From a virus, in the UHGV virus genome UHGV-0178594: 64,000 bases of DNA. One strand, 5' to 3'. The translations under genes and the position numbers were made by a program. This document shows, piece by piece, positions 1-26,912 of this stretch (position 1 is the first letter of the stretch; every line of letters starts with the position of its first letter). Below the pieces are notes generated by a model. The model made no database searches and had not been told where the DNA came from. It worked only from the letters and a program-made list of their open reading frames with translations.

Positions 1-600
1 GATATTGGCGCTGCCATCAAATGACACTCCGCCGATTGTGCGTGCCGTCTGAAGTTTCGTTGCGGTTGCAGCATTACCTGTTGTGTTCTGGTTACCGGCA
101 ATGTTCACACCCGGCAGGTTGATATTGGCGCTGCCATCAAATGACACTCCGCCGATTGTGCGTGCCGTCTGAAGTTTCGTTGCGGTTGCAGCATTGCCGG
201 TAGTGCTCTGATTACCTGTTTTATTCACGCCTGGCAGGTCGATATTGGCGCTGCCATCAAATGACACTCCGCCGATTGTGCGTGCCGTCTGAAGTTTCGT
301 TGCGGTTGCAGCATTACCTGTTGTGTTCTGGTTACCGGCAATGTTCACACCCGGCAGGTTGATATTGGCGCTGCCATCAAATGACACTCCGCCGATTGTG
401 CGTGCCGTCTGAAGTTTCGTTGCGGTTGCAGCATTGCCGGTAGTGCTCTGATTACCTGTTTTATTCACGCCTGGCAGGTCGATATTGGCGCTGCCATCAA
501 ATGACACCCCGCCGATTGTGCGTGCCGTCTTGAGCTTTGTCGCAGTATCTGCGTTTCCCGTCAAATTACCTGTAATGCCACCACTAACTGTTACCCCATT
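1..600. repeat. Tandem coding repeats inside tail-fibre gene: 1-240 identical to 241-480, each made of two diverged 120-bp units; diverged copies continue to ~960
   Basis: Direct comparison of sequence lines 1-240 and 241-480 shows identity; unit starts GATATTGGCGCTGCCATCAAATGACAC. Confidence 0.9.
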
Positions 601-2262
601 ACCGATCGACACCAACCCAGTTCTTAAATTTATAGCAAAAGGTCTTAATGGGCCGATGTCACCATTTTCTCCCTCACCTTCATTTGTCGGGATAAGATGC
701 AGAGATTCCTCGGATCTCCTGAAGATAAGGCCAAAGTCCTGGTTAAATATTCGAAGGGCATTTATTGTGCCAATTTTTAGCTGCCCCCCCATTGTGTCGC
801 CAGAACGCTGAACTGCGTTACCAGCTTGAGAAGCAATATCCGTTAAGCCAAGATCTTCAGGGGTCAGAGTAATATCTGCCGACCCATCAAATGCCACACC
901 GTTAATCTTTCTGGCTGTTTTTAATTTCGTCGCAGTATCGGCGTTCCCGGTCAGCGTACCAGTGATCCCCGCGCTGAAAGTCTGGCGTGCACTCCAGGTA
1001 TTAGCTGTGCTCAACAGGGGGAGCTTTTCTCCGCTGGTTCCGAGTTCTCTTAAACCAAGGTATTGGATAACAGCCAGTGTGCTTGTTTTAGCAAGAATAT
1101 CGCGACCGACTGACGTTAAATCAGTCTGGGCTACAGTGTCTGTTCCGGTAAAGTACGGTAATTTATTTGCCCCCGTCGCCAGGCCAGCGAGCGCGGTTAA
1201 GGTTGCGTCGAGAGGCTGCTTACCTGCCAGGGCATTTGTCATTGTAGTCGCAAAGTTCGGGTCATTGCCCAGCGCCGCAGCAAGCTCATTAAGAGTATCA
1301 AGAGCTTCTGGTGATGAGCCGACCAATGCAGAAATAGCGGCACGAACATAAGCGGTTGTTGCAATCTGAGTGTTGTTCGTACCTTGTGACGCCGTAGGAG
1401 CTGTTGGAACCCCCGTAAATGCCGGGCTTAATAACGGCGCTTTAAGAGCTAAAGCATCATTAATCGTCTGGCTAAACTGGGGATCATTGTTTATTGCATC
1501 TGCAATTTTTTTCAGCGTATCCAACGCTGAAGGAGAACCATCAATAAGGGCGGTTATAGCGGCCTGAACAAAGGCAGCGTTTGCGATTTGTGTACTGTTT
1601 GTACCTTGTTCCGGAGTTGGAGATGTAGGGATACCTATAAATTCCGGGCTATCAACCGGAGCTTTAAGTTTATTTAACGTGCTGATAGCAAGGGGGGTTG
1701 CAGCTTTATATTCTTCGTCACTATCCAAAGCACTGGAGAACTCAACACCTACAGCACGATTAGCGCGATATTTAGTGCTAATCATATCTGCGGTAACGGC
1801 TTGAGCATTGTCAGGCACGATCACTCGGCATAGCTCAATCTGGTTAGATGCTATGCCCTCATCAACGAGAGCTATAATTCTCGCAGCACTAATATCCGAT
1901 GAACTATCTACCTGGCTGGTTTTCACTCCATGTTCGTAATTAGCTTCAAGAACGATGATTGTCGTTACACCTGCTTCTACAGGAACAACAACATCACTGA
2001 CTTGCTGCACGGATATCTGACATTTACCCACGTCAACTGAAGCCGCCCCTCTTCCCTCTGTTTTCTCGGATGTAATCCGCACAAACAGGCCATCCCCTGG
2101 CACCGGTTCAAACCCACAGTACACACCGGGCAGAACGATATTTTTCATCTTCCTGTTTAGAGCTTCGGTGCTATACAGCTCAAAGTATTGCATGTCTGCA
2201 ATTAGTGGAGCGGAAATGTCCGAAGATAAGGTGACAATGTTCTTTACTTTATCTGCGCACAT
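1..2262 (-). CDS. Tail fibre protein, partial (C-terminal end runs off the window); ~40-aa phage tail-fibre repeats
   Basis: Minus-strand ATG at 2262-2260; no complete minus ORF is listed here although the reverse translation reads through repeats of the type ..TGNADTATKLKTARTIGGVSFDGSANI..; plus-strand ORFs at 485-1567 are antisense artefacts. Confidence 0.6.
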   Translation of the reverse strand, partial: MCADKVKNIVTLSSDISAPLIADMQYFELYSTEALNRKMKNIVLPGVYCGFEPVPGDGLFVRITSEKTEGRGAASVDVGKCQISVQQVSDVVVPVEAGVTTIIVLEANYEHGVKTSQVDSSSDISAARIIALVDEGIASNQIELCRVIVPDNAQAVTADMISTKYRANRAVGVEFSSALDSDEEYKAATPLAISTLNKLKAPVDSPEFIGIPTSPTPEQGTNSTQIANAAFVQAAITALIDGSPSALDTLKKIADAINNDPQFSQTINDALALKAPLLSPAFTGVPTAPTASQGTNNTQIATTAYVRAAISALVGSSPEALDTLNELAAALGNDPNFATTMTNALAGKQPLDATLTALAGLATGANKLPYFTGTDTVAQTDLTSVGRDILAKTSTLAVIQYLGLRELGTSGEKLPLLSTANTWSARQTFSAGITGTLTGNADTATKLKTARKINGVAFDGSADITLTPEDLGLTDIASQAGNAVQRSGDTMGGQLKIGTINALRIFNQDFGLIFRRSEESLHLIPTNEGEGENGDIGPLRPFAINLRTGLVSIGNGVTVSGGITGNLTGNADTATKLKTARTIGGVSFDGSANIDLPGVNKTGNQSTTGNAATATKLQTARTIGGVSFDGSANINLPGVNIAGNQNTTGNAATATKLQTARTIGGVSFDGSANIDLPGVNKTGNQSTTGNAATATKLQTARTIGGVSFDGSANINLPGVNIAGNQNTTGNAATATKLQTARTIGGVSFDGSANI

Positions 2263-2264
2263 AA

Positions 2265-2711
2265 TTATCCCTCGACCTGTTCAATGGTCATGAGCAAGCT
2301 GTATCGCTTACCTTTGAATAAGGTGTCCTGTTGAGTACAAACAACCCCAAAAGCCTGATCCTCTGCATCTACGAGAACCAGCGTATTGAAATCGTAAGGT
2401 GTATCGTCCGGCATCGTTTCTTGTGGAAAAGCGGCATTAATCGTAATGACACCATCGAGGCTGGAAAGAATGAGATTGGATTCAGCAAAATGCTGTGCAT
2501 CACTTAACTTGAAGTCGAGCGGAATATCAGAAATAGTCCAGCCACCAGCACTATTTACCGTCACAAGATCGGACTTGCACCAATAAGCCTTTGTCATAAC
2601 AAAACGCTCACCTCTGCCGATTGCAGACTCTGCACGGCGAGAGTAGTAGTAAGAAAGGAGTTGCGCCTTGTAAATACTGGAATCGCTTTGGGATTTTAAA
2701 GTTTCAGCCAT
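2265..2711 (-). CDS. Tail-associated protein immediately upstream of tail-fibre gene
   Basis: 148-aa ORF in the baseplate/tail-fibre operon; no recognised motif. Confidence 0.3.
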   Translation of the reverse strand: MAETLKSQSDSSIYKAQLLSYYYSRRAESAIGRGERFVMTKAYWCKSDLVTVNSAGGWTISDIPLDFKLSDAQHFAESNLILSSLDGVITINAAFPQETMPDDTPYDFNTLVLVDAEDQAFGVVCTQQDTLFKGKRYSLLMTIEQVEG

Positions 2712-2827
2712 ACGAACATAGCCCCTTTAACAAGCAATAAATCGAAGGGCAGTATGTTCAGTTTGTGATTTCCAGTGGTTTTTTGTTTTGAGAAATGGCC
2801 CCACCCAGGTTGGCGGGGCCTGGTTTG

Positions 2828-3670
2828 CTAAGGTGCAAAATTATAATCCAGCGCCCAGGCGTCGAGCGGGAGTTCATCGAGATGAAGCACTCTTTCCGTC
2901 GTCCGGTCTGGCCTTCCTGCGAACTGGATGCCGCCTATTTGAATGATCGTATCGCTAATAGATAGCTCATCGACCATCTCTTGCGTCGTGTACACCCCCT
3001 CAATAAAGGACACTTCCGCAGATAAGCAATTCAGGATCTCCGCCATTTCCGGCAATGTTGCGCTTAACTGGAAAGAAACACCATCAAACACGATATGCAA
3101 TGGCAATAGCGGCGCTATAACCGTATCAAAATCAGCAAGTAGCTTCTGTACAGCAACGTCTCGGTCATCGCTATCATAAGCTCGATACAGCTTATTTTGG
3201 TTGACGACAACCAGCCCTCTGGATGTCAGGAAAAACTCACCATATTGTGCCTGAGCGGTCGGTATTTCATTTGCGGTCGCGAAGAATGAACCATAGGGAT
3301 GTTTTTCTGTATCGACAGGCGCATACAAAGGTTCCCATGAGACGGGGATTGTGCCAAATTCACGCCAGAACGTTTGCTCTATCGGCCTTACTGTTCCTTT
3401 GAAGTGCACCTCATCCAGTCGTTGAGCTAATAGCATTGGCCTGCGTGTTTTGTCCGTTTCTGTGATAACAAAGAAACGACCATATTCAGCAATGCGAGTG
3501 TCCATATCCTCCCTTGCCATTGTGAAAAACGATTTACGGTTGCTTATTCGCGTGAGAATAGGTTCAACCGATTCATTCCACACGTCCTGAATCGTATCAA
3601 CAAAGGCGGCCCACAATTTAGAATCCTGTTTAAATTGCGTCAGACGCTCTTTTAGCCAGTTATTCTGCAT
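2828..3670 (-). CDS. Baseplate/tail protein (gpI-like position)
   Basis: 280-aa ORF; gene order W-like, J-like, this ORF, tail fibre resembles P2-type baseplate wedge modules. Confidence 0.3.
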   Translation of the reverse strand: MQNNWLKERLTQFKQDSKLWAAFVDTIQDVWNESVEPILTRISNRKSFFTMAREDMDTRIAEYGRFFVITETDKTRRPMLLAQRLDEVHFKGTVRPIEQTFWREFGTIPVSWEPLYAPVDTEKHPYGSFFATANEIPTAQAQYGEFFLTSRGLVVVNQNKLYRAYDSDDRDVAVQKLLADFDTVIAPLLPLHIVFDGVSFQLSATLPEMAEILNCLSAEVSFIEGVYTTQEMVDELSISDTIIQIGGIQFAGRPDRTTERVLHLDELPLDAWALDYNFAP

Positions 3671-3679
3671 TGTGACCTC

Positions 3680-5110
3680 TTACGGATAGGTTATGCTGAA
3701 CGTTGATGATTCCACGTCCAGATAAACAAAATCATTAAAGTACACAGCTTCTTTCATGTTCTGCGTAGCCACGTCATAAGACAGGAACATATCCAGCGAT
3801 TCGATTACTCGCCAGATATCTTTTACTTTGACCTGTGCATAACATTGCTGTGAATCGTCATCACTCTGCAATAGCTGGCTAAATGACATGGAGTCTTTAC
3901 CGAAGTTCTCCTCCAGTGCCGCTTTAATTGCAGTTAGCGCGTCATCCACCAGCACACTCTTTTTTACGATACCGGTAAATTTGATGTTGAACGGCTGTTC
4001 ATTGGTGGCGACGTATTCGAACTTCTTATTCAGCTCATTAGGGATACTCTCAAGGGCTGATAATATCTCTGTTTTCAGAGCTTCCTGTGTTACGCCGGGC
4101 TTGTGCCCACAAAAGAAAATTTTGTTGATATTACGCACATCAAAGCCCGTGATTTTCTCCTGTAGCGCCTCCCCCCACACGTTAAGCCATGACGTGCCAC
4201 TGACCACGTTCTGAATGAACTGTCGGTAATCACCGCCCCAAACAACCTGCTCATCGTAGGCCACATAATACTGCGCCCTGTTTCGGGTTTCCTCGGTAGT
4301 TTCCATGCCACCACCGCCAGAAATGATCGAATCGGTTTTTACTTCCAGTGATTCGACATACCCGGAGATGTTCCCTGCTGGTTCAAGTTTCTGGCCTTCA
4401 GCCAGCGTGTAATCACCGAGGCTTGCCATAATATCAATGCGTACCTGACTCCCTGCCGCTGGCATCATCCCCATTGATCCATCACCGAAGCGCACGCCGA
4501 TCTGTTCTGTCGGCTTATAAACCAACACATAATGTTTACTGTTATCCCTGGACATGCGGAACAGGGGGTTATGTGTCCATTTTTCCTCGACACCATTAGT
4601 TATCACGACAACTTCCAGGCTGGCGACTTCTGCTGTTAACTCACGGGAAAGTAACAGCGTCAAGAATGGTGTTTCTTGCACCACGTCGAACGTTACGCTG
4701 ACTGCTTCATGCTGTTTTACTTCTATGCCGGGTACTGTTTCACCAGCAGGGATAACAACACTACTGCTGGTTGCAATTGGTGTCTGGTCACTTGTCAGTA
4801 ATTCAGCCCCTCCGGGTAGCGTAATATCCCTGTCGGTTTTGTTGGTGATGGAAACAGTGCCGTATGACGCATCGACCAAACGACCGACATAGCCACGGTC
4901 TTCCGCTGCCGCGAGAATACTTGCTCTACGCGTCGCGGTGGAAATGAATCCTTCTGTAAGTGCACGGCTTGCAAATGTACGCGCAATATAAACAATCTGC
5001 GCGCCCAAAACGGACTGCATTTGAATAAACTGGCTGTTTACAAATCGCGCCCACCAGGGGTTTTCGTTCAGCTTGGCATTAAACTTGTCCAGTAATTCGG
5101 TAATACTCAC
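3680..5110 (-). CDS. Baseplate protein (gpJ-like position)
   Basis: 476-aa ORF between a W-sized ORF and the tail-fibre block; call is by position and size only. Confidence 0.35.
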   Translation of the reverse strand: MSITELLDKFNAKLNENPWWARFVNSQFIQMQSVLGAQIVYIARTFASRALTEGFISTATRRASILAAAEDRGYVGRLVDASYGTVSITNKTDRDITLPGGAELLTSDQTPIATSSSVVIPAGETVPGIEVKQHEAVSVTFDVVQETPFLTLLLSRELTAEVASLEVVVITNGVEEKWTHNPLFRMSRDNSKHYVLVYKPTEQIGVRFGDGSMGMMPAAGSQVRIDIMASLGDYTLAEGQKLEPAGNISGYVESLEVKTDSIISGGGGMETTEETRNRAQYYVAYDEQVVWGGDYRQFIQNVVSGTSWLNVWGEALQEKITGFDVRNINKIFFCGHKPGVTQEALKTEILSALESIPNELNKKFEYVATNEQPFNIKFTGIVKKSVLVDDALTAIKAALEENFGKDSMSFSQLLQSDDDSQQCYAQVKVKDIWRVIESLDMFLSYDVATQNMKEAVYFNDFVYLDVESSTFSITYP

Positions 5111-5481
5111 GCTGTATCTCCGCTATCTTTCTGCATAACAACATTCACGGTGCCTCCTTTTGCCTGGAAGCTAATTAGTAACTGGTCTTCAGAGACAGTC
5201 GCGCAGCGGATCGCCTGGAGTCCAAGCCCTGGTAAGTCCTGCTGTAGCTTCGTCATCATTCGCGCTTCAATCGCCACTTCAACAATGTGTGACGTATCAG
5301 AACCGAAGGGTTCGTGTTTGAACTCCTCCATCGGATTCCCCCATGACGGCAATCCGTAAACGCTGCCATTTGGTGTCCGTAGCCATTCATCGAGTCGGGC
5401 TATCCAGGCGTTTGTGTCGCCTTCAGCGATCACCACCCCGCTCTCGTTTGTCTGAAGGCGGGCATCAATCTCATAAAGCAT
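5107..5481 (-). CDS. Baseplate wedge protein (gpW-like size/position)
   Basis: 124-aa ORF, 4-bp overlap with the downstream gene. Confidence 0.3.
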   Translation of the reverse strand: MLYEIDARLQTNESGVVIAEGDTNAWIARLDEWLRTPNGSVYGLPSWGNPMEEFKHEPFGSDTSHIVEVAIEARMMTKLQQDLPGLGLQAIRCATVSEDQLLISFQAKGGTVNVVMQKDSGDTA

Positions 5482-5486
5482 CAGTC

Positions 5487-8400
5487 TTAATCCTCCAGTA
5501 ATTTGTCAAGAGATGGGTCATTGATAGTCGTGCTGGCACGCTGACGAGGTTGTGGTTGTGATGTGTTCACAACTTTGTCCTGATCGCCTTTGCGGTTGTC
5601 TTTGCTTACGCCAAGAATCTCTTTGAGAACGGAATAAACGTTCTCCAGTGCTTTCAACATAGCCGGATCGTTATTTGCGGTATCTGTTGTTAGCATCTGC
5701 CTTATTCCGCTTCGTGCGAGGTCCGTGACGGTTGGTAGCTGAGGAGGCATTGCAAGGAACGGTTCTTTAGCAGCCACGCCCGAAGCAAACAGGCTTTGAT
5801 TGATTGCGCCAGTCGTGTCCCTGATCGTATCCGCCGTTTTCTGTATGCCACCATTCAGCCAACCGCCAACACTCCTTGTTAACGGACTAATAGCGCGAGC
5901 AACATCGGTATTCTGTCCAGAGGACTGCAATACAAAGTCATTTAACATTCCGGTGCTATCAATACCGCCCACAAGTCGCGAGAGGTTATCTCCAACGGCG
6001 GGGAGGACGGCGGAGCCTACCTGGTTAAGCCCTGACACAGTTGAATCAAATAGCGAGCCAAAGAAGCCCCTGTCCTCACCTTCAACCACCTTGTAGCCGT
6101 TGTCGTAAATCTGCACACCCGCCGGTGTCGATGTGGCACGCTTCTCGCTGATGGTTGCCGGACTCTCCGGAAGCAGGTCAATGGTTTCTGTATCGCGGTT
6201 AACGTTGCGCTTTTGCTGTATAGCCGTAGTGATATCGGCGATCGGTTCCGCCTTCTGGAAACTAAAGTTTTTGCCCGTTGCTCTGGATATTTTTTCAACA
6301 AGAAACTTATCCAATTGCTTGGCTTTTGCTGCTAACGAGGACATCTCTTCCGGAGAACTGGCAGGGCCGAGATTTAGCCCCATATTGGGATCTCCCCCAA
6401 CTATCCCGGCGATGACGCCCCCAACACCGTCTGCACTCATTAACCGCTCCGTCAATCCGGCTGCGGCGGAAGAATTGCCACTAGCTTTCGCGTGGCTGAT
6501 CGCTTGGGCATTTTCCTGTTGAGCTGCCTTCGGTTTTTTAGCTGCCTGTGCGTGTTGAACCACGTCAGTAGGGCTAGGCATTACAGCCTGGGCTACGCTT
6601 GACGCAGGAATAGCAGAAGATGAGCCGTTGGCGTATTTGACTTTGCTACCGACACTATATTGGGAGTTGCGAGCGATTAGAGGACCGCCCTTTTCCTTCT
6701 GGATTTTATTAATGTGTTCCAGCGTTTCATCATTGAATTGCCCTTCCCAACGCCCAGTTTTAGCGTTGAATGAACCAAGAGCTGTTTTGATGAAATTGTT
6801 GTTAACCGCCGGGTTACCCCCCTCCTTCGTCGCAATAGCGCGAACAAGGTGCGTCATAACTTCAGGGTTGCTAACGTCTATTTTATCGTTGGGGGATACC
6901 CCTAGATATTTGCTGACGTTTTCAATGTACTGATTGGTGTTGTTCTCTGTTGGTGGTGCCCATTTTGAAATGATGCTGGATACTGTTTGCAGCTTCTGAT
7001 ACCCAGCGGCAGCACTTGTACCGTTGTAATAACTCGATACCTGGTTTGCCAATGCCCGAATCCCTTCTTCGGGCGTATTAAACCGCGCAAAACGCTGTTC
7101 GCCTTTCGCGTTCGGCGCTTCCAGTACCGCCCCCTCCTGATTTGCAAAAACCAGGTTCCCCAGGTTGTTATTCCGGTAATTCCTGTTCTTGGCGTTGCTT
7201 CCGCCTATATTCAGATCAGTCGTTATTGTATTTTTTTCAGGCGCTTTAAATTCGTCTGGCGATTTGTAGCCGTGTTCACCCACGCCATCCTCACCTCTGC
7301 GCCCGCCCTGTAGCTGTCGGGACAGATCATTAATTGCGGCTACCGTTTGCTTGGTGCCATCTTCAACGGCTTTCTTAACCTGCGCAGTGCCTTCGCTGCT
7401 TGATGAGAACGATTCTTTTAGGCTGCTGAATGCGTTCTTCGACGCGTCGATAGAACTATTTATGCCGCGAGCAATATTGCTGGTATCAAGACTCTGAAGT
7501 TTTTGTCCGACACCTTCAAAGCCTAGCGCGGACATCCCCTCGCCAATGAGGTTAGCCGCTCCCGTCACCAGACCGCCCATATCCAGGACGTTAGCAGCGG
7601 CGTAGGCGCTCTTTTGCTGTGTTGTAACGTCCTGCCCTTCCTTCAGGTTATAAGTCGCCCTCTGCGCTTCTGTGTCGCTGTAGCCGTCTACGGCATCATA
7701 ACCAACCATAGCCACCTGGCCGATGACTGGAATCGCCCTGAATCCGGCCCTTGCGGCAACACCTCCGGCAGCTTTGAGAGCCACTTTTCCAGCTTCTTTT
7801 TTCGCGATGTTTTCACCAGTGGCAACGGCAACCTTACCCGCCTCTTTCCTGGTAAGGCTTTCCCCAGCGGAAGTTGCCGCTTTACCAGCGTCTTTCCCTG
7901 CCGCTCCACCAGCCGCCGTTTTGGCTACGCTTTCTTCAGTGACCTTACCTGCTCTGGTTTTAACTGAAGATTTATCACCCGATGATTTTGGTGAGGTACT
8001 ACCCTCGTTCCCACCAGCATTTTTTGTCCGATTTTTTTCCTCGCCCGCACTGTTGTTTTTGCCTGGCTGATTTTTTTTCCCCTCTTTGCCTTCCTGACTC
8101 CTGCCCGTCTCAGTAGGTTTGCTGGTGTTTTTTCCCTTCTTGCCCTTGTTTTCTTTACTGTCTCCAGTGCGGCCCGTGTTGCCACCACGTGCACTGCTAC
8201 GACCGCGTGTAGGGGATATTTTGGTACGTAATCTGCCACCGCCGAGGAGGTCGCTCAGTTTTAGCCCACTCTCCTGGGACTTTCGTAGCTTCCGGATCTC
8301 TTCGGATACAGTTTCCAGCTCATCAATTATCTGGCTGTCGTTGCGTTGAAGAACTTTCGTTTGTTCTTCGATCGCACGCACAGATTTTTCTTTAACGGCT

Positions 8401-24497: not shown

Positions 24498-26912
24498 TTA
24501 ATTGAGCGTGGCTATAATGTCGTTAGCTATCATTCGGGTTGATGCTTTACAGGATACAGAGCGACGGGATGGCATAGGATACACCTTGAAGCCATTGCCA
24601 ACGTAAAGTTCGCGAATGTTAGGCGCACCACTGTTTGTTATCACAATTTTCGCTCCGCGTCTGTGGGCATCCACCAGCAGTGACACCAGCCGTTGTTGAT
24701 CTTCAAACCTAAAGCTATGCCCTGAGTAATTTGTAAATCCGGTAGTGTCGGGCAATGGTTCATAGGGGGGATCGCAGAAAATCACATCATCATTCCCTGC
24801 AGCCTCAATTACACCAGCAAAATCGCCGGACACAAATTCCGAATACTTTGAAATATCGTCAGCCAGGAACGCCTCCATTTCCGCGAGAGGGAAGTGGGGG
24901 GATTTCTGCTTTCCATATCCGACGTTGAACTCTCCTTTACGGTTATAGCGAGTGACGCCATTAAAACAATGACGATTGAGATACAGGAACGCCGCTGCAT
25001 GGTGAAGGGAATCATAAGCACCATTGTTGAATGCATTGCGAACATTCAAAAATGCATCAGCAGAGTTGTAATCCTGAAAAAAACGATATGCCAGTGTGAT
25101 AAGAGAATGCCCTTCACGCTGCAATGTCTGATAGAAGTTAATCAGGTCACCGTTAATATCATTAAGCAGGTTGTGGCGAAAACCTGCATTCGTAAATACG
25201 GAACCGCCACCAACGAATGGTTCTATTAACCGCTTGCCGTGTGGCAGATGCTCAAGCACTGTAGGCAACCCTGAGAATTTACCGCCTACCCATTTGAATA
25301 TTGGGCGCTCATATTCATCCGGAGTCCGGAGTTTTCTTGTGTAGGTAATGGTATTTATTGTTTTTTGCTGTTTATCCGCCACGGTCGCAAGAATGCGACA
25401 CCCAATCCATTGCATAACAGGAACTGCCATGCTGTTGCCGATCGCTTTGTAACGCGGTCCGTCAGCAGCGAGCATCGCGGCCTCTTCTTCGCTTAAATCT
25501 GGATAGTGATTGCGAAGATATGCCAGTTCATCTGAATTAACTTTTTTACGCTTTTCCGTCGGGATCAACGTATGCCCATCAGGAAAACCTTGCAGCCTTT
25601 CACATTCGACAGGGGTAAGACGGCGGACAGCTACTTCTGCGTTTCTTACTTCATAGCAAACAGCTGTTGGATTTTTAGCCATTAGAGATGGTGAAGTATT
25701 CTTAGTTGCAGCATGTTGTGTACCGCTCATACGCTCAGGAAAAGCCAATGTAACAAGATGCTCATGGCTTTCTTGCTCACGTGCCCGCAATGTACCATGC
25801 CCTTCTGACCAAAAACCTGCTCCTGTGCTGCTAAAAACGGCAAGGTCAGTGGCATCTTTAAAATCTCTTGCCTTTACTGTCGATGCGGTTTCATCGTCAA
25901 TATATTCCCCAAATGCTGCCATCCTGAAAGCGTTTACGGCTTTCGTCGATTTCATACCGGGTGGCATGTCAGCGTGTAGGCATGGATTTAGGCTTTCGCC
26001 ACTGATTGCAGCGCCATTTGCAATAATGGCGGAAGCGATTTCCTTCTTTTTTCGGCTCGGCGCAATATTCCGGCGCACGCCTTCGAACTCAAAAAGTACC
26101 GTTGCGGGATCGAGGTCTGTTCGAGCACTTGCGACAACAAACACGCGTCGGCGTCGTTGCGCCACTCCGAAGTATTGGGCATCAAGGATTCTCCAGGCCA
26201 CTTTTCGCTGCGGTCCATAAATACAACCACACTGCGGCCACTTTGGAGCATGGCAACCGGTTTTGACATCCCACCGCCAGAACGAGTTACTTTTTCCTGA
26301 TTCAGGTCGATCACCTGGTTCGAATGGCGCATCTTCTCCAGCCAATCCGGCAAGGAAACATCCGAAGGCGTTATCTGCCGATGACAGGACTCCTGGGACA
26401 TTTTCCCAGACGATAACTGTCGGTTTGAGGAAGGACTCAGACCGTTTGTCGTCAATTGCATTTGCAAGCTCCACATACTTCAAAGTTAGCGCGCCGCGTT
26501 CATCATCAAGCCCACCACGTAAGCCCGCGATACTGAATGCCTGACAAGGGGTTCCTCCGACGAGGACATCCGGGGCTTCAATTTTTCCAGCCCGGACCTT
26601 CTTAGCAAGTTTTGTCATGTCGCCAAGGTTGGTAACATGAGGCCAGTGGTGCGCAAGAACGGCAGACGGAAAAGGCTCAATTTCAGCAAACCAAGCCGGA
26701 CGCATACCCAACGGTTCCCAGGCAATGCTTGCGGCTTCAATTCCACTGCAAACCGAACCATATCGAAGATTAATGCTTTGCTTCACCGCCAATGGCCTCC
26801 ACCAGCGAGCTAAACATCGCGGATAATTCGCTTGTGAACAGAATGAAGTCAGCATCAAATCGCTGGGCAACATCTTCACGGTCGATGTCATCGTTCTGGT
26901 CATAGAGATCAT
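24498..26912 (-). CDS. dmt: Bifunctional DNA methyltransferase: N-terminal C5-cytosine MTase fused to C-terminal Dam-like N6-adenine MTase
   Basis: C5 motifs ..YGSVCSGIEAA.., ..GGTPCQAFSIAG.., ..VIVWENVPG..; Dam motifs ..FKWVGGKF.., ..FLYLNRHCFNG.., ..FCDPPY..; 5' end uncertain (143-bp overlap with rdgC as listed). Confidence 0.8.
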   Translation of the reverse strand: MISMTRTMTSTVKMLPSDLMLTSFCSQANYPRCLARWWRPLAVKQSINLRYGSVCSGIEAASIAWEPLGMRPAWFAEIEPFPSAVLAHHWPHVTNLGDMTKLAKKVRAGKIEAPDVLVGGTPCQAFSIAGLRGGLDDERGALTLKYVELANAIDDKRSESFLKPTVIVWENVPGVLSSADNAFGCFLAGLAGEDAPFEPGDRPESGKSNSFWRWDVKTGCHAPKWPQCGCIYGPQRKVAWRILDAQYFGVAQRRRRVFVVASARTDLDPATVLFEFEGVRRNIAPSRKKKEIASAIIANGAAISGESLNPCLHADMPPGMKSTKAVNAFRMAAFGEYIDDETASTVKARDFKDATDLAVFSSTGAGFWSEGHGTLRAREQESHEHLVTLAFPERMSGTQHAATKNTSPSLMAKNPTAVCYEVRNAEVAVRRLTPVECERLQGFPDGHTLIPTEKRKKVNSDELAYLRNHYPDLSEEEAAMLAADGPRYKAIGNSMAVPVMQWIGCRILATVADKQQKTINTITYTRKLRTPDEYERPIFKWVGGKFSGLPTVLEHLPHGKRLIEPFVGGGSVFTNAGFRHNLLNDINGDLINFYQTLQREGHSLITLAYRFFQDYNSADAFLNVRNAFNNGAYDSLHHAAAFLYLNRHCFNGVTRYNRKGEFNVGYGKQKSPHFPLAEMEAFLADDISKYSEFVSGDFAGVIEAAGNDDVIFCDPPYEPLPDTTGFTNYSGHSFRFEDQQRLVSLLVDAHRRGAKIVITNSGAPNIRELYVGNGFKVYPMPSRRSVSCKASTRMIANDIIATLN

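What the first reader, a model, noticed from the sequence alone, without database searches (positions are those of the whole stretch)
1..960. Perfect 240-bp tandem duplication inside the tail-fibre gene
Positions 1-240 and 241-480 are identical at the nucleotide level and are followed by progressively diverged copies. Identical in-frame repeats of a fibre domain imply recent duplication or ongoing repeat-number variation, which would change fibre length or receptor reach. The array is cut by the window edge, so the copy number is unknown.
Basis: seen in the sequence. Interest (0 to 1): 0.45.

Follow-up and report, generated by a model that had tools for sequence, protein, structure and literature searches.

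The report
Variable 40-residue repeats in tail fibre
The perfect 240-bp duplication is real: it is two extra copies of a common 40-amino-acid shaft repeat in the tail-fibre gene of a P1/D6-like E. coli phage-plasmid, an ordinary kind of repeat-number variation whose exact count here cannot be trusted without long reads.

Summary
Window 1-240 and 241-480 are identical. Perfect 240-bp periodicity runs from 1 to 507 and into the window edge. The true unit is 120 bp (40 aa), in two alternating subtypes, D and N, that are 107/120 identical.

The gene is on the minus strand. Its ATG is at 2262 and it is cut at position 1. It is the gpS-type tail fibre of a roughly 92-kb D6/P1-like E. coli phage-plasmid.

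Only 1-558 is an array. 559-870 is a non-repeat knob domain, and 871-948 is one solitary diverged unit, so "progressively diverged copies" is wrong.

Three complete plasmids carry the arrangement D-N-D-N-terminal. The two whose gene was read (CP104667, CP114225) match the window exactly over 62-2262. The window continues D-N-D-N-D, so it has at least one more unit.

Relatives with matching flanks form a ladder of 2-6 units (1049 to 1209 aa). 103 protein pairs differ essentially only by a 40, 80 or 120-aa indel. Part of this ladder may be short-read collapse, but alleles whose units are told apart by SNPs (x4, x5, x6) and complete P1-type plasmids (x2, x3, x4) show real variation.

The most likely mechanism is unequal homologous recombination or slippage between identical 75-nt unit cores, which changes shaft length and also shuffles the knob domains. 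The unit is widespread in phage tail fibres (6723 protein clusters). Ordinary; low interest.

The parts
1..2262 (-). First 754 codons of the gpS-type tail-fibre gene. The ATG is at 2260-2262 and the gene runs off the left window edge. The full gene is 3510 bp / 1169 aa in the closest complete plasmids.
   Evidence: Translation is open over all 754 codons. PHROG tail-fibre families match, E=0. 82-83% nt identity to the constant part of P1 gene S and 75% to D6 S. Full-length gene read in CP104667 and CP114225.
1..558 (-). Tandem array 1 of 40-aa (120-bp) units. U1 is 439-558 (D type, diverged 5' part), U2 319-438 (N type), U3 199-318 (D), U4 79-198 (N), and U5 1-78 (identical to the first 78 nt of U3, cut by the edge).
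   Evidence: The 75-nt core occurs at 1, 121, 241 and 361 with 0 mismatches, at 481 with 11, and nowhere else in the window.
1..507 (.). Stretch of perfect 240-bp periodicity, the 'perfect duplication' of the finding.
   Evidence: 1-240 == 241-480. The perfect lag-240 run is 267 nt and ends at the window edge.
559..870 (-). Non-repeat 'knob A' domain (aa 464-567) between the solitary unit and the array. It contains an SGDTMGG motif.
   Evidence: No repeat identity in register. Weak alignment to phage Mu tail fibre S, PDB 5yvq. PHROG 6859 tail fibre matches aa 468-568. The domain is constant at 90 aa in the architecture table.
871..948 (-). Solitary, diverged copy of the unit core (GNADTATKLKTARKINGVAFDGSADI, aa 438-463).
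   Evidence: 49-53/78 nt identical to the array units.
1048..1067 (+). cixR-type Cin recombination site inside the fibre gene. It marks the start of the variable distal half that holds the repeats.
   Evidence: Identical to the annotated cixR of phage D6. Present as a single copy in the 17-kb relative locus L003.
1213..1650 (-). Older 73-aa tandem duplication in the constant part of the same gene (aa 204-276 and 277-349).
   Evidence: 58% identity, E 8e-30. Lies in the region where the P1 record annotates repeated elements b1/b2.
2265..2711 (-). P1 gpR homologue (148 aa) immediately upstream of the fibre gene.
   Evidence: PHROG 2032, E 1.4e-69. PF26881 Phage_P1_tail_fiber_R is recorded on the gene at the same position in L011-L013. 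D6 orf36 is annotated 'similar to P1 gene R'.

Best explanation
What it is. The window starts inside the distal, variable half of the gpS-type tail-fibre gene of a D6/P1-like E. coli phage-plasmid. That half is built from 40-aa units (consensus GNAATATKLQTARTIGGVSFDGSANIxLPGVNxxGNQxTT), arranged in tandem arrays separated by small knob domains.

The event. The perfect 240-bp duplication is a recent in-register duplication of a D-N unit pair. The likely series is D-N-T, then D-N-D-N-T, then D-N-D-N-D..., where T is the terminal unit.

Mechanism (inferred). It most likely arose by unequal homologous recombination or replication slippage between the 75-nt unit cores, which are nucleotide-identical. 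The same cores serve as homology patches through which knob and receptor-binding domains are deleted, inserted and permuted among related fibres.

Structure (inferred). Each unit most likely adds one segment to a trimeric beta-stranded shaft, probably a triple beta-helix, so unit number sets the spacing between knobs and the total fibre length. My own estimate from triple-beta-helix geometry is about 2-3 nm per unit. This was not measured.

Shown: the repeat anatomy, the gene identity, the allele ladder and the domain permutations. Inferred: the recombination mechanism, the fold, and any effect on host range.
For: - Anatomy.
- Element identity: 99.6% identical to plasmid NZ_CP104667.1 over most of the window, with P1/D6 gene order sit-pmgA-bplA-16-R-S-U.
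- Step series on matching N-terminal flanks. L014 (100% identical to window 302-5883) is D-N-T. L011 and L012 also encode 1089-aa fibres and align to the window only down to 254. CP104667 and CP114225 share an identical 3510-bp gene that is D-N-D-N-T and matches window 62-2262 exactly. JBYRJZ010000003 aligns to window 14-700 exactly as CP114225 does. The window itself is D-N-D-N-D...
- Ladder: with constant flanks, array 1 has 2, 3, 4, 5 or 6 units (1049, 1089, 1129, 1169, 1209 aa). A series without knob B runs 835, 875, 915, 995 aa.
- 103 protein pairs differ by at most 2 substitutions apart from a 40, 80 or 120-aa in-register indel.
- Alleles whose units are distinguishable by SNPs: L006 x5, L018 x4 and L019 x3 have 0 mismatches over the other 2910 nt of the gene. 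L017 is x6 and differs from them at 24 positions in that flank.
- Complete P1-type plasmids carry x2, x3 or x4 before the same knob.
- Domain order is permuted, always bounded by units.
- Concerted evolution: the core is 100% identical while the D and N linkers differ at 11 codons (13 nt), 7 of them synonymous.
[quoted passage not shown] T4 gp34 itself is a triple beta-helix punctuated by wider domains (PMC5537660).
- The unit is common in tail fibres.
Against: - The unit count beyond the window edge is unseen.
- Many x3 and x4 alleles come from short-read, Logan or metagenome assemblies, in which identical units collapse.
- All ten complete-level plasmids with the window's architecture have exactly five units, so length may be more constrained than the ladder suggests.
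- Several records or contigs begin or end inside the array, and a 172-member cluster of 'partial' proteins stops in it. Assemblers clearly struggle here.
- No complete E. coli genome holds the window's arrangement.
- The fold is not established: the AF2 monomer model failed with pLDDT 49.8, and the Dec spike is itself a homology model.
- There are no functional data on fibre length or host range.
Confidence: 0.75

Rival explanations
1. The extra unit or units in the window (and possibly the window's copy number as a whole) are an assembly artefact. The assembler went round the D-N loop of the graph too many or too few times, or the contig simply ends in the repeat.
For: - 507 nt of perfect 240-bp periodicity cannot be counted by 150-nt reads.
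- Record or contig ends fall in this array in CP104667 (record start = window 508), L013 (contig end = window 509), JBWKMP010000003 (record end = window 277) and CP098907 (record start = window 950).
- A cluster of 172 'partial' proteins ends in the array.
- The window itself begins inside the array.
- No complete genome has the window's arrangement.
Against: - The D-N-D-N core of the duplication is identical in the 3510-bp gene of two complete plasmids from different sources, and a third complete plasmid aligns to window 14-700 in the same way. At least one 240-bp duplication is therefore reproducible.
- x6 arrays exist in which every unit carries distinguishing SNPs (L017).
- Nothing in the sequence itself marks a misjoin.
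Confidence: 0.2
2. There is no extra unit. The window has five units like CP104667, but the start of its terminal unit was gene-converted to the interior type.
For: The window differs from CP104667 only in its last 61 nt, and only 78 nt of the fifth unit are visible.
Against: - In every full-length allele of this architecture read here, the unit before knob B has the terminal type 'TINGV(K/N)FDGSANIS'.
- The visible 78 nt are identical to unit 3, as expected for a whole-unit duplication.
- Whole-unit steps are what relatives show.
Confidence: 0.05
3. The array is a dedicated, programmed hypervariation device (site-specific or enzyme-driven) rather than a passive recombination hotspot.
For: An orphan cixR site lies about 500 bp upstream in the same gene. 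The family normally switches fibre ends by Cin inversion.
Against: - The units contain no cix-like sequence.
- No invertase or partner site lies next to the gene in close relatives.
- Indels are always whole units in register, as expected from homology-driven events.
- No DGR-type features were seen, but no dedicated search for them was made.
Confidence: 0.02

Closest known systems
Tail fibre gpS of phages P1, P7 and D6 (R-S-U operon with Cin-invertible C segment)
   Same: Same gene position after gp16 and R. 82-83% nt identity to the constant part of P1 S and 75% to D6 S. cixR site identical to D6. A Caudo_TAP assembly protein follows in relatives. The P7 and RCS47 variable parts also contain the 40-aa unit.
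   Different: Close relatives of the window have no cin, no cixL and no alternative S'/U' set. The distal half here is a longer mosaic of unit arrays and knobs ending in a Gp53-like_C domain.
T4 proximal long tail fibre gp34 C-terminal region (triple beta-helix punctuated by P3-P5 beta-prism domains; PMC5537660)
   Same: Same design principle: a thin trimeric beta shaft interrupted by wider globular domains. The Dec spike that matches the unit was modelled on gp34.
   Different: No detectable sequence match between the unit profile and gp34 in the PDB search. According to that paper the gp34 beta-helix has no clear sequence repeat, whereas this array is near-perfectly repetitive.
Recombination between conserved motifs in T-even distal fibre genes (Tetart et al. 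1998, cited in PMC10879196) and motif mosaicism of P1/p15B/P2 fibre genes (Sandmeier 1994; from my own knowledge)
   Same: Short conserved sequence blocks inside fibre genes act as crossover points that swap or rearrange modules.
   Different: Here the conserved block is itself a tandem structural unit, so the same homology also changes the copy number and hence the length.
Adenovirus fibre shaft pseudo-repeats and collagen-like repeats in Streptococcus thermophilus phage host-specificity proteins (from my own knowledge)
   Same: The number of shaft repeats differs between strains and sets fibre length.
   Different: Unrelated sequences and folds. In those systems an effect on receptor usage has been tested; here it has not.

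Membership tests
P1/D6-type tail fibre protein S | Encoded directly downstream of P1 gene 16 and gene R homologues in the baseplate/tail-fibre operon | tested here: met
   PF26903 and PF26881 are recorded on the genes at the same positions in L011-L013. PHROG 2015 and 2032 match the window proteins. The D6 annotation agrees.
P1/D6-type tail fibre protein S | Sequence homology to the constant part (Sc) of P1/D6 S | tested here: met
   Window 866-1608 is 82-83% identical to P1 S, and 896-2669 is 75% identical to D6 S plus R.
P1/D6-type tail fibre protein S | cix crossover site inside S, with a partner site, alternative Sv'/U' genes and the cin invertase | tested here: inconclusive
   cixR is present and identical to D6. 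The partner region lies outside the window. In the close relative L003 there is only one site and no cin, cixL or S'/U'.
P1/D6-type tail fibre protein S | Followed by a tail-fibre assembly protein (gpU / Caudo_TAP) | tested here: met
   Met in relatives only. PF02413, E 2.8e-34, in L003, and also in L011, L012, L016-L019. The gene lies outside the window.
Coding tandem-repeat (VNTR-like) copy-number polymorphism | Head-to-tail, in-frame, near-identical units | tested here: met
Coding tandem-repeat (VNTR-like) copy-number polymorphism | Alleles that differ only in the number of whole units | tested here: met
   103 such protein pairs. L006, L018 and L019 have 0 flank mismatches. Complete P1-type plasmids carry x2, x3 or x4. 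Caveat: part of the ladder may be short-read collapse.
Coding tandem-repeat (VNTR-like) copy-number polymorphism | Copy number verified by reads spanning the array in the source isolate | not testable with these tools
   No reads are available and the source record was not found.
Pfam PF03406 Phage_fiber_2 'phage tail fibre repeat' | The units match the PF03406 profile above its gathering score | tested here: not met
   The only match is sub-threshold, at aa 174-198 (18.1 bits against a cut-off of 22), outside the array. Nothing matches the 40-aa units even at E<=1.
Trimeric triple beta-helix fibre shaft (T4 gp34/gp12, phage L Dec spike) | Sequence similarity of the unit to a chain with that assigned fold | tested here: met
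   The unit profile matches Dec 6e3c residues 98-133 at E 6.7e-6 and PhiM1 gp47 8vbx at E 9.7e-4. The Dec spike is a homology model, not an experimental atomic structure.
Trimeric triple beta-helix fibre shaft (T4 gp34/gp12, phage L Dec spike) | Three intertwined chains forming parallel beta rungs along the axis | tested here: inconclusive
   The AF2 monomer model of aa 431-754 gave mean pLDDT 49.8 and is unusable.

The most novel reading that the evidence does not exclude
The D-N unit pair is expanding stepwise (x3, x5, then at least x6) in phage-plasmids that are otherwise 99.6-100% identical around the gene. On this reading, fibre length is being tuned on an epidemiological time scale, for example to the thickness of the host O-antigen or capsule layer, and the 75-nt unit core doubles as a universal recombination joint for knob and receptor-binding cassettes across P1-like elements.
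Probability: 0.2. Interest if true: 0.5.

Novelty: new member of a known kind. Interest (0 to 1): 0.22.

Why it matters
If the ladder is real, unit number is a fast and cheap way for P1/D6-like phage-plasmids to change tail-fibre geometry and reshuffle receptor-binding modules. These elements are common in clinical E. coli and often carry resistance genes, so this matters for predicting their host range and for engineering P1-type delivery vectors. In practice the array is mainly a warning. It breaks or collapses short-read assemblies, so fibre gene lengths in databases should not be taken at face value. The 40-aa unit is very common (6723 representative clusters) yet matched no Pfam-A model in the copy searched here, so it would be worth adding as a family.

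Tried and rejected
- AF2 monomer prediction of aa 431-754 with a 36-row alignment gave mean pLDDT 49.8 and pTM 0.22. It was unusable, so no fold search was run.
- A second prediction, for knob A alone, was dropped because all available homologues are more than 92% identical, which makes the alignment too shallow.
- Search for the window's source record, to see the rest of the array. An exact 40-nt pattern next to the array found 0 viral contigs, 0 genome contigs and 1 metagenome contig. That contig (L014) is a x3 relative, not the source.
- An exact look-up of the window's 1265-aa transglycosylase found three other contigs, none identical to the window.
- PLSDB, INPHARED and 5426 complete E. 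coli genomes hold no 100% match to window 1-700.
- My initial guess that the units are Pfam Phage_fiber_2 was tested and rejected.
- NCBIfam gave no family for the fibre, the assembly protein or gpR.
- The ΦM1 paper gave no structural detail for the matching gp47 stretch.
- The D6 genome paper (PMC5800970) is not held.
- A programmed-variation reading (Cin, DGR) was considered and rejected for lack of any supporting feature.
Full report
**1. The observation**

Window 1-240 and 241-480 are identical base for base. Tandem Repeats Finder reports one array at 1-530, described either as period 240 (2.2 copies, 99% matches, score 1053) or as period 120 (4.4 copies, 90% matches). The perfect lag-240 run is 267 nt. 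Window 1-507 is therefore perfectly 240-periodic, and the periodicity runs into the window edge.

The real unit is 120 bp. The four complete copies are of two alternating kinds that share 107/120 bases. Their first 75 nt on the + strand are identical in all four, and all 13 differences lie in + strand unit positions 76-120. The 75-nt core occurs nowhere else in the 64-kb window.

- 481-558 belongs to the 5'-most unit of the array (81/120 identical in register).
- 559-870 shows only random identity in register (25-33%) and encodes a non-repeat domain.
- 871-948 is one solitary, much more diverged copy of the unit core (49-53 of 78 nt).

**2. The gene**

The coding strand is the minus strand. 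An ATG at 2260-2262 opens a frame that stays open for 754 codons to position 1. The protein matches PHROG tail-fibre families (phrog_454, E = 0). The two genes upstream match the PHROGs for the P1 R and gene-16 proteins.

Window 866-1608 is 82-83% identical at the nucleotide level to the constant part of gene S of phage P1. Window 896-2669 is 75% identical to S and R of phage D6.

The window as a whole is 99.6% identical over most of its length to the 91.75-kb E. coli plasmid NZ_CP104667.1. That plasmid's annotation is of a P1/D6-like phage-plasmid: RepB, ParM, baseplate, sheath and tube genes, pacase, DarA, Doc/Phd and others. Gene order around the fibre is transglycosylase (sit), pmgA, bplA, 16, R, S, U, as in D6.

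In CP104667 and in the independent plasmid CP114225 the complete gene is 3510 bp (1169 aa) and identical in both. It ends in a Gp53-like_C domain and is followed by a Caudo_TAP assembly protein.

**3. Anatomy of the distal half**

In the full-length relative the protein reads as follows:
- 438 aa of N-terminal and constant part;
- one solitary unit;
- knob A (about 90-100 aa);
- array 1 (five units);
- knob B (94 aa);
- array 2 (three units);
- a 187-aa receptor-binding end.

The unit consensus is GNAATATKLQTARTIGGVSFDGSANIxLPGVNxxGNQxTT. The two subtypes differ in the linker: D type is NIDLPGVNKTGNQSTT and N type is NINLPGVNIAGNQNTT. They differ at eleven codons (13 nt), four of them amino-acid changes and seven synonymous. 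An identical core next to a linker with many silent differences is the signature of concerted evolution or very recent duplication of two older unit types.

In the window the units are U1 (439-558, D), U2 (319-438, N), U3 (199-318, D), U4 (79-198, N) and U5 (1-78). U5 is identical to the first 78 nt of U3 and is cut by the edge.

**4. Comparison with the closest relatives**

The window is identical to CP104667 and CP114225 from 62 to 2262. It differs only in its last 61 nt. There the plasmids enter the terminal unit (TINGVNFDGSANIS, which leads into knob B) while the window continues as an interior unit. The complete plasmids are D-N-D-N-T and the window is D-N-D-N-D..., so it has at least six units, and seven if the dimer was duplicated once more.

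A metagenome contig (L014) that is 100% identical to window 302-5883 is D-N-T. Two NCBI contigs that encode exactly the same 1265-aa transglycosylase as the window (L011, L012) also have 1089-aa fibres and align to the window only down to position 254. On matching N-terminal flanks there is thus a series x3, x5 and at least x6, in steps of the 240-bp dimer. JBYRJZ010000003 aligns to window 14-700 with the same coverage, identity and score as CP114225, so I take it to be a third complete record with D-N-D-N-T. None of 5426 complete E. coli genomes holds the window's arrangement at 100%.

**5. The wider ladder**

Among the 120 best homologues, proteins with the same flanks have 2, 3, 4 or 6 units in array 1 (1049, 1089, 1129, 1209 aa). 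The complete plasmids supply x5. A parallel series lacking knob B has 835, 875, 915 and 995 aa.

Unit patterns differ (D-D-D-D-N-T, D-N-N-T, D-N-D-N-T and others), so several independent events are needed. 103 protein pairs differ by at most two substitutions apart from an in-register indel of 40, 80 or 120 aa, many with zero other differences.

Other domains are also gained, lost or permuted, always at unit boundaries. Examples are knob A deleted, a 216-aa domain inserted, the 94-aa and 216-aa domains in either order, and different C-terminal ends. The unit core therefore behaves as a general crossover point.

**6. How much of the ladder is real**

Identical units cannot be counted by short reads.

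Points suggesting collapse or breakage:
- L011 and L013 are third-party (TPA-type DB...) NCBI records, L019 is a Logan contig and L014 is a metagenome contig. I take most of these to be short-read assemblies.
- All ten complete-level plasmids with the window's architecture have exactly five units, in three different patterns.
- Records or contigs begin or end inside the array: CP104667 starts at window 508, L013 ends at window 509, JBWKMP010000003 ends at window 277 and CP098907 starts at window 950.
- A 172-member cluster of 'partial' proteins stops after the third unit.

Points showing real variation:
- L017 (x6) has units that all carry distinguishing SNPs. Its longest perfect lag-120 run is 73 nt.
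- L006 (x5), L018 (x4) and L019 (x3) have zero mismatches over the other 2910 nt of the gene, and their units differ by 4-32 nt.
- Complete P1-type plasmids carry x2, x3 or x4 units before the same knob B.

I conclude that copy-number polymorphism is real in this family, that part of the database ladder is probably collapse, and that the number in the window is unknown.

**7. What the unit is**

Pfam-A has no model that hits it, even at E <= 1. The only Phage_fiber_2 signal is sub-threshold and lies elsewhere, at aa 174-198. NCBIfam gave nothing.

A profile of twelve units matches two PDB chains:
- the C-terminal spike of the phage L decoration protein (6e3c, E 6.7e-6);
- the tail fibre gp47 of phage ΦM1 (8vbx, E 9.7e-4).

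[quoted passage not shown] An AlphaFold2 monomer model of aa 431-754 was unusable (pLDDT 49.8), as expected for an obligate trimer, so the fold remains an inference.

The unit is very common. 6723 representative clusters match at E <= 1e-3, with up to 12 matched stretches per protein. It occurs in tail fibres of phages as different as Goslar, SSU5, 9g, P1/P7, and Aeromonas, Acinetobacter, Shewanella and cyanobacterial phages.

**8. Mechanism**

- Shown: tandem, in-frame, near-identical units; alleles differing by whole units; domain permutations bounded by units.
- Inferred: unequal homologous recombination or replication slippage between the 75-nt identical cores duplicates or deletes units. 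Here the event involved a D-N pair, hence 240 bp.
- Inferred: each unit adds a fixed length to the trimeric shaft. My rough estimate from triple-beta-helix geometry is 2-3 nm. This changes the spacing of knobs and the reach of the receptor-binding tip.
- No evidence was seen for a programmed mechanism.

**9. Verdict**

The gene assignment and the 'recent duplication / repeat-number variation' reading are broadly right. The details (unit size, strand, 'diverged copies') need correction, and the copy number needs long reads.

Repeat-number variation and motif-mediated mosaicism in tail-fibre genes are well-known phenomena. This is a new, well-documented instance in D6/P1-like phage-plasmids and not a new kind of system. 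Interest is low.

Noticed in passing
window 1048-1067 (context 1040-1075): A Cin recombination site identical to the cixR of phage D6 sits inside the fibre gene. Close relatives (L003, 17 kb around the gene) have only this one copy and no cin invertase, cixL or alternative S'/U' genes. The invertible segment seems to have been lost, leaving one fibre end fixed.
   Followed up: partly
window 24498-26912 (-): An intact 804-aa ORF fuses a C5-cytosine and a D12-class N6-adenine DNA methyltransferase domain. In the 99.6%-identical plasmid CP104667 about 1.45 kb is missing here, and the gene is annotated as a truncated pseudogene.
   Followed up: partly
window about 1213-1650 (-), aa 204-276 and 277-349: There is a second, older tandem duplication in the constant part of the same fibre gene: two 73-aa segments that are 58% identical (SPxFxGxPTxPT...NDPxF). 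It lies in the region where the P1 record annotates 'repeated element b1/b2'. Part of it matches the tail collar fibre gp4 of PDB 9d93.
   Followed up: partly
window 1-558 and relatives L001, L013; records NZ_JBWKMP010000003.1, NZ_CP098907.1: Several public assemblies start or stop exactly at or inside this array (window 508/509, 277 and 950), including a plasmid labelled complete. A 172-member cluster of 'partial' fibre proteins ends after the third unit. The array is a systematic breakpoint for assemblers.
   Followed up: partly
window 79-558 (unit sequence); proteins P0121-P0269: The 40-aa unit matched no Pfam-A or NCBIfam model in the copies searched, although 6723 representative protein clusters (50% identity level) match it at E<=1e-3. 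It occurs in tail fibres from enterobacterial, Acinetobacter, Aeromonas, Shewanella and cyanobacterial phages.
   Followed up: partly
relatives P0057, P0068, P0053, P0076, P0100 (architectures): The globular domains between unit arrays (90, 94 and about 216 aa) are present, absent or in swapped order in otherwise similar fibres, always bounded by units. This suggests cassette shuffling through the unit core.
   Followed up: partly
L010 (NZ_CP159120.1 6174-17123): In this relative the fibre gene region has internal stops or a frameshift. It is flanked by an inverted second fibre end plus a second assembly gene, so an invertible-segment arrangement is still present in part of the family.
   Followed up: no
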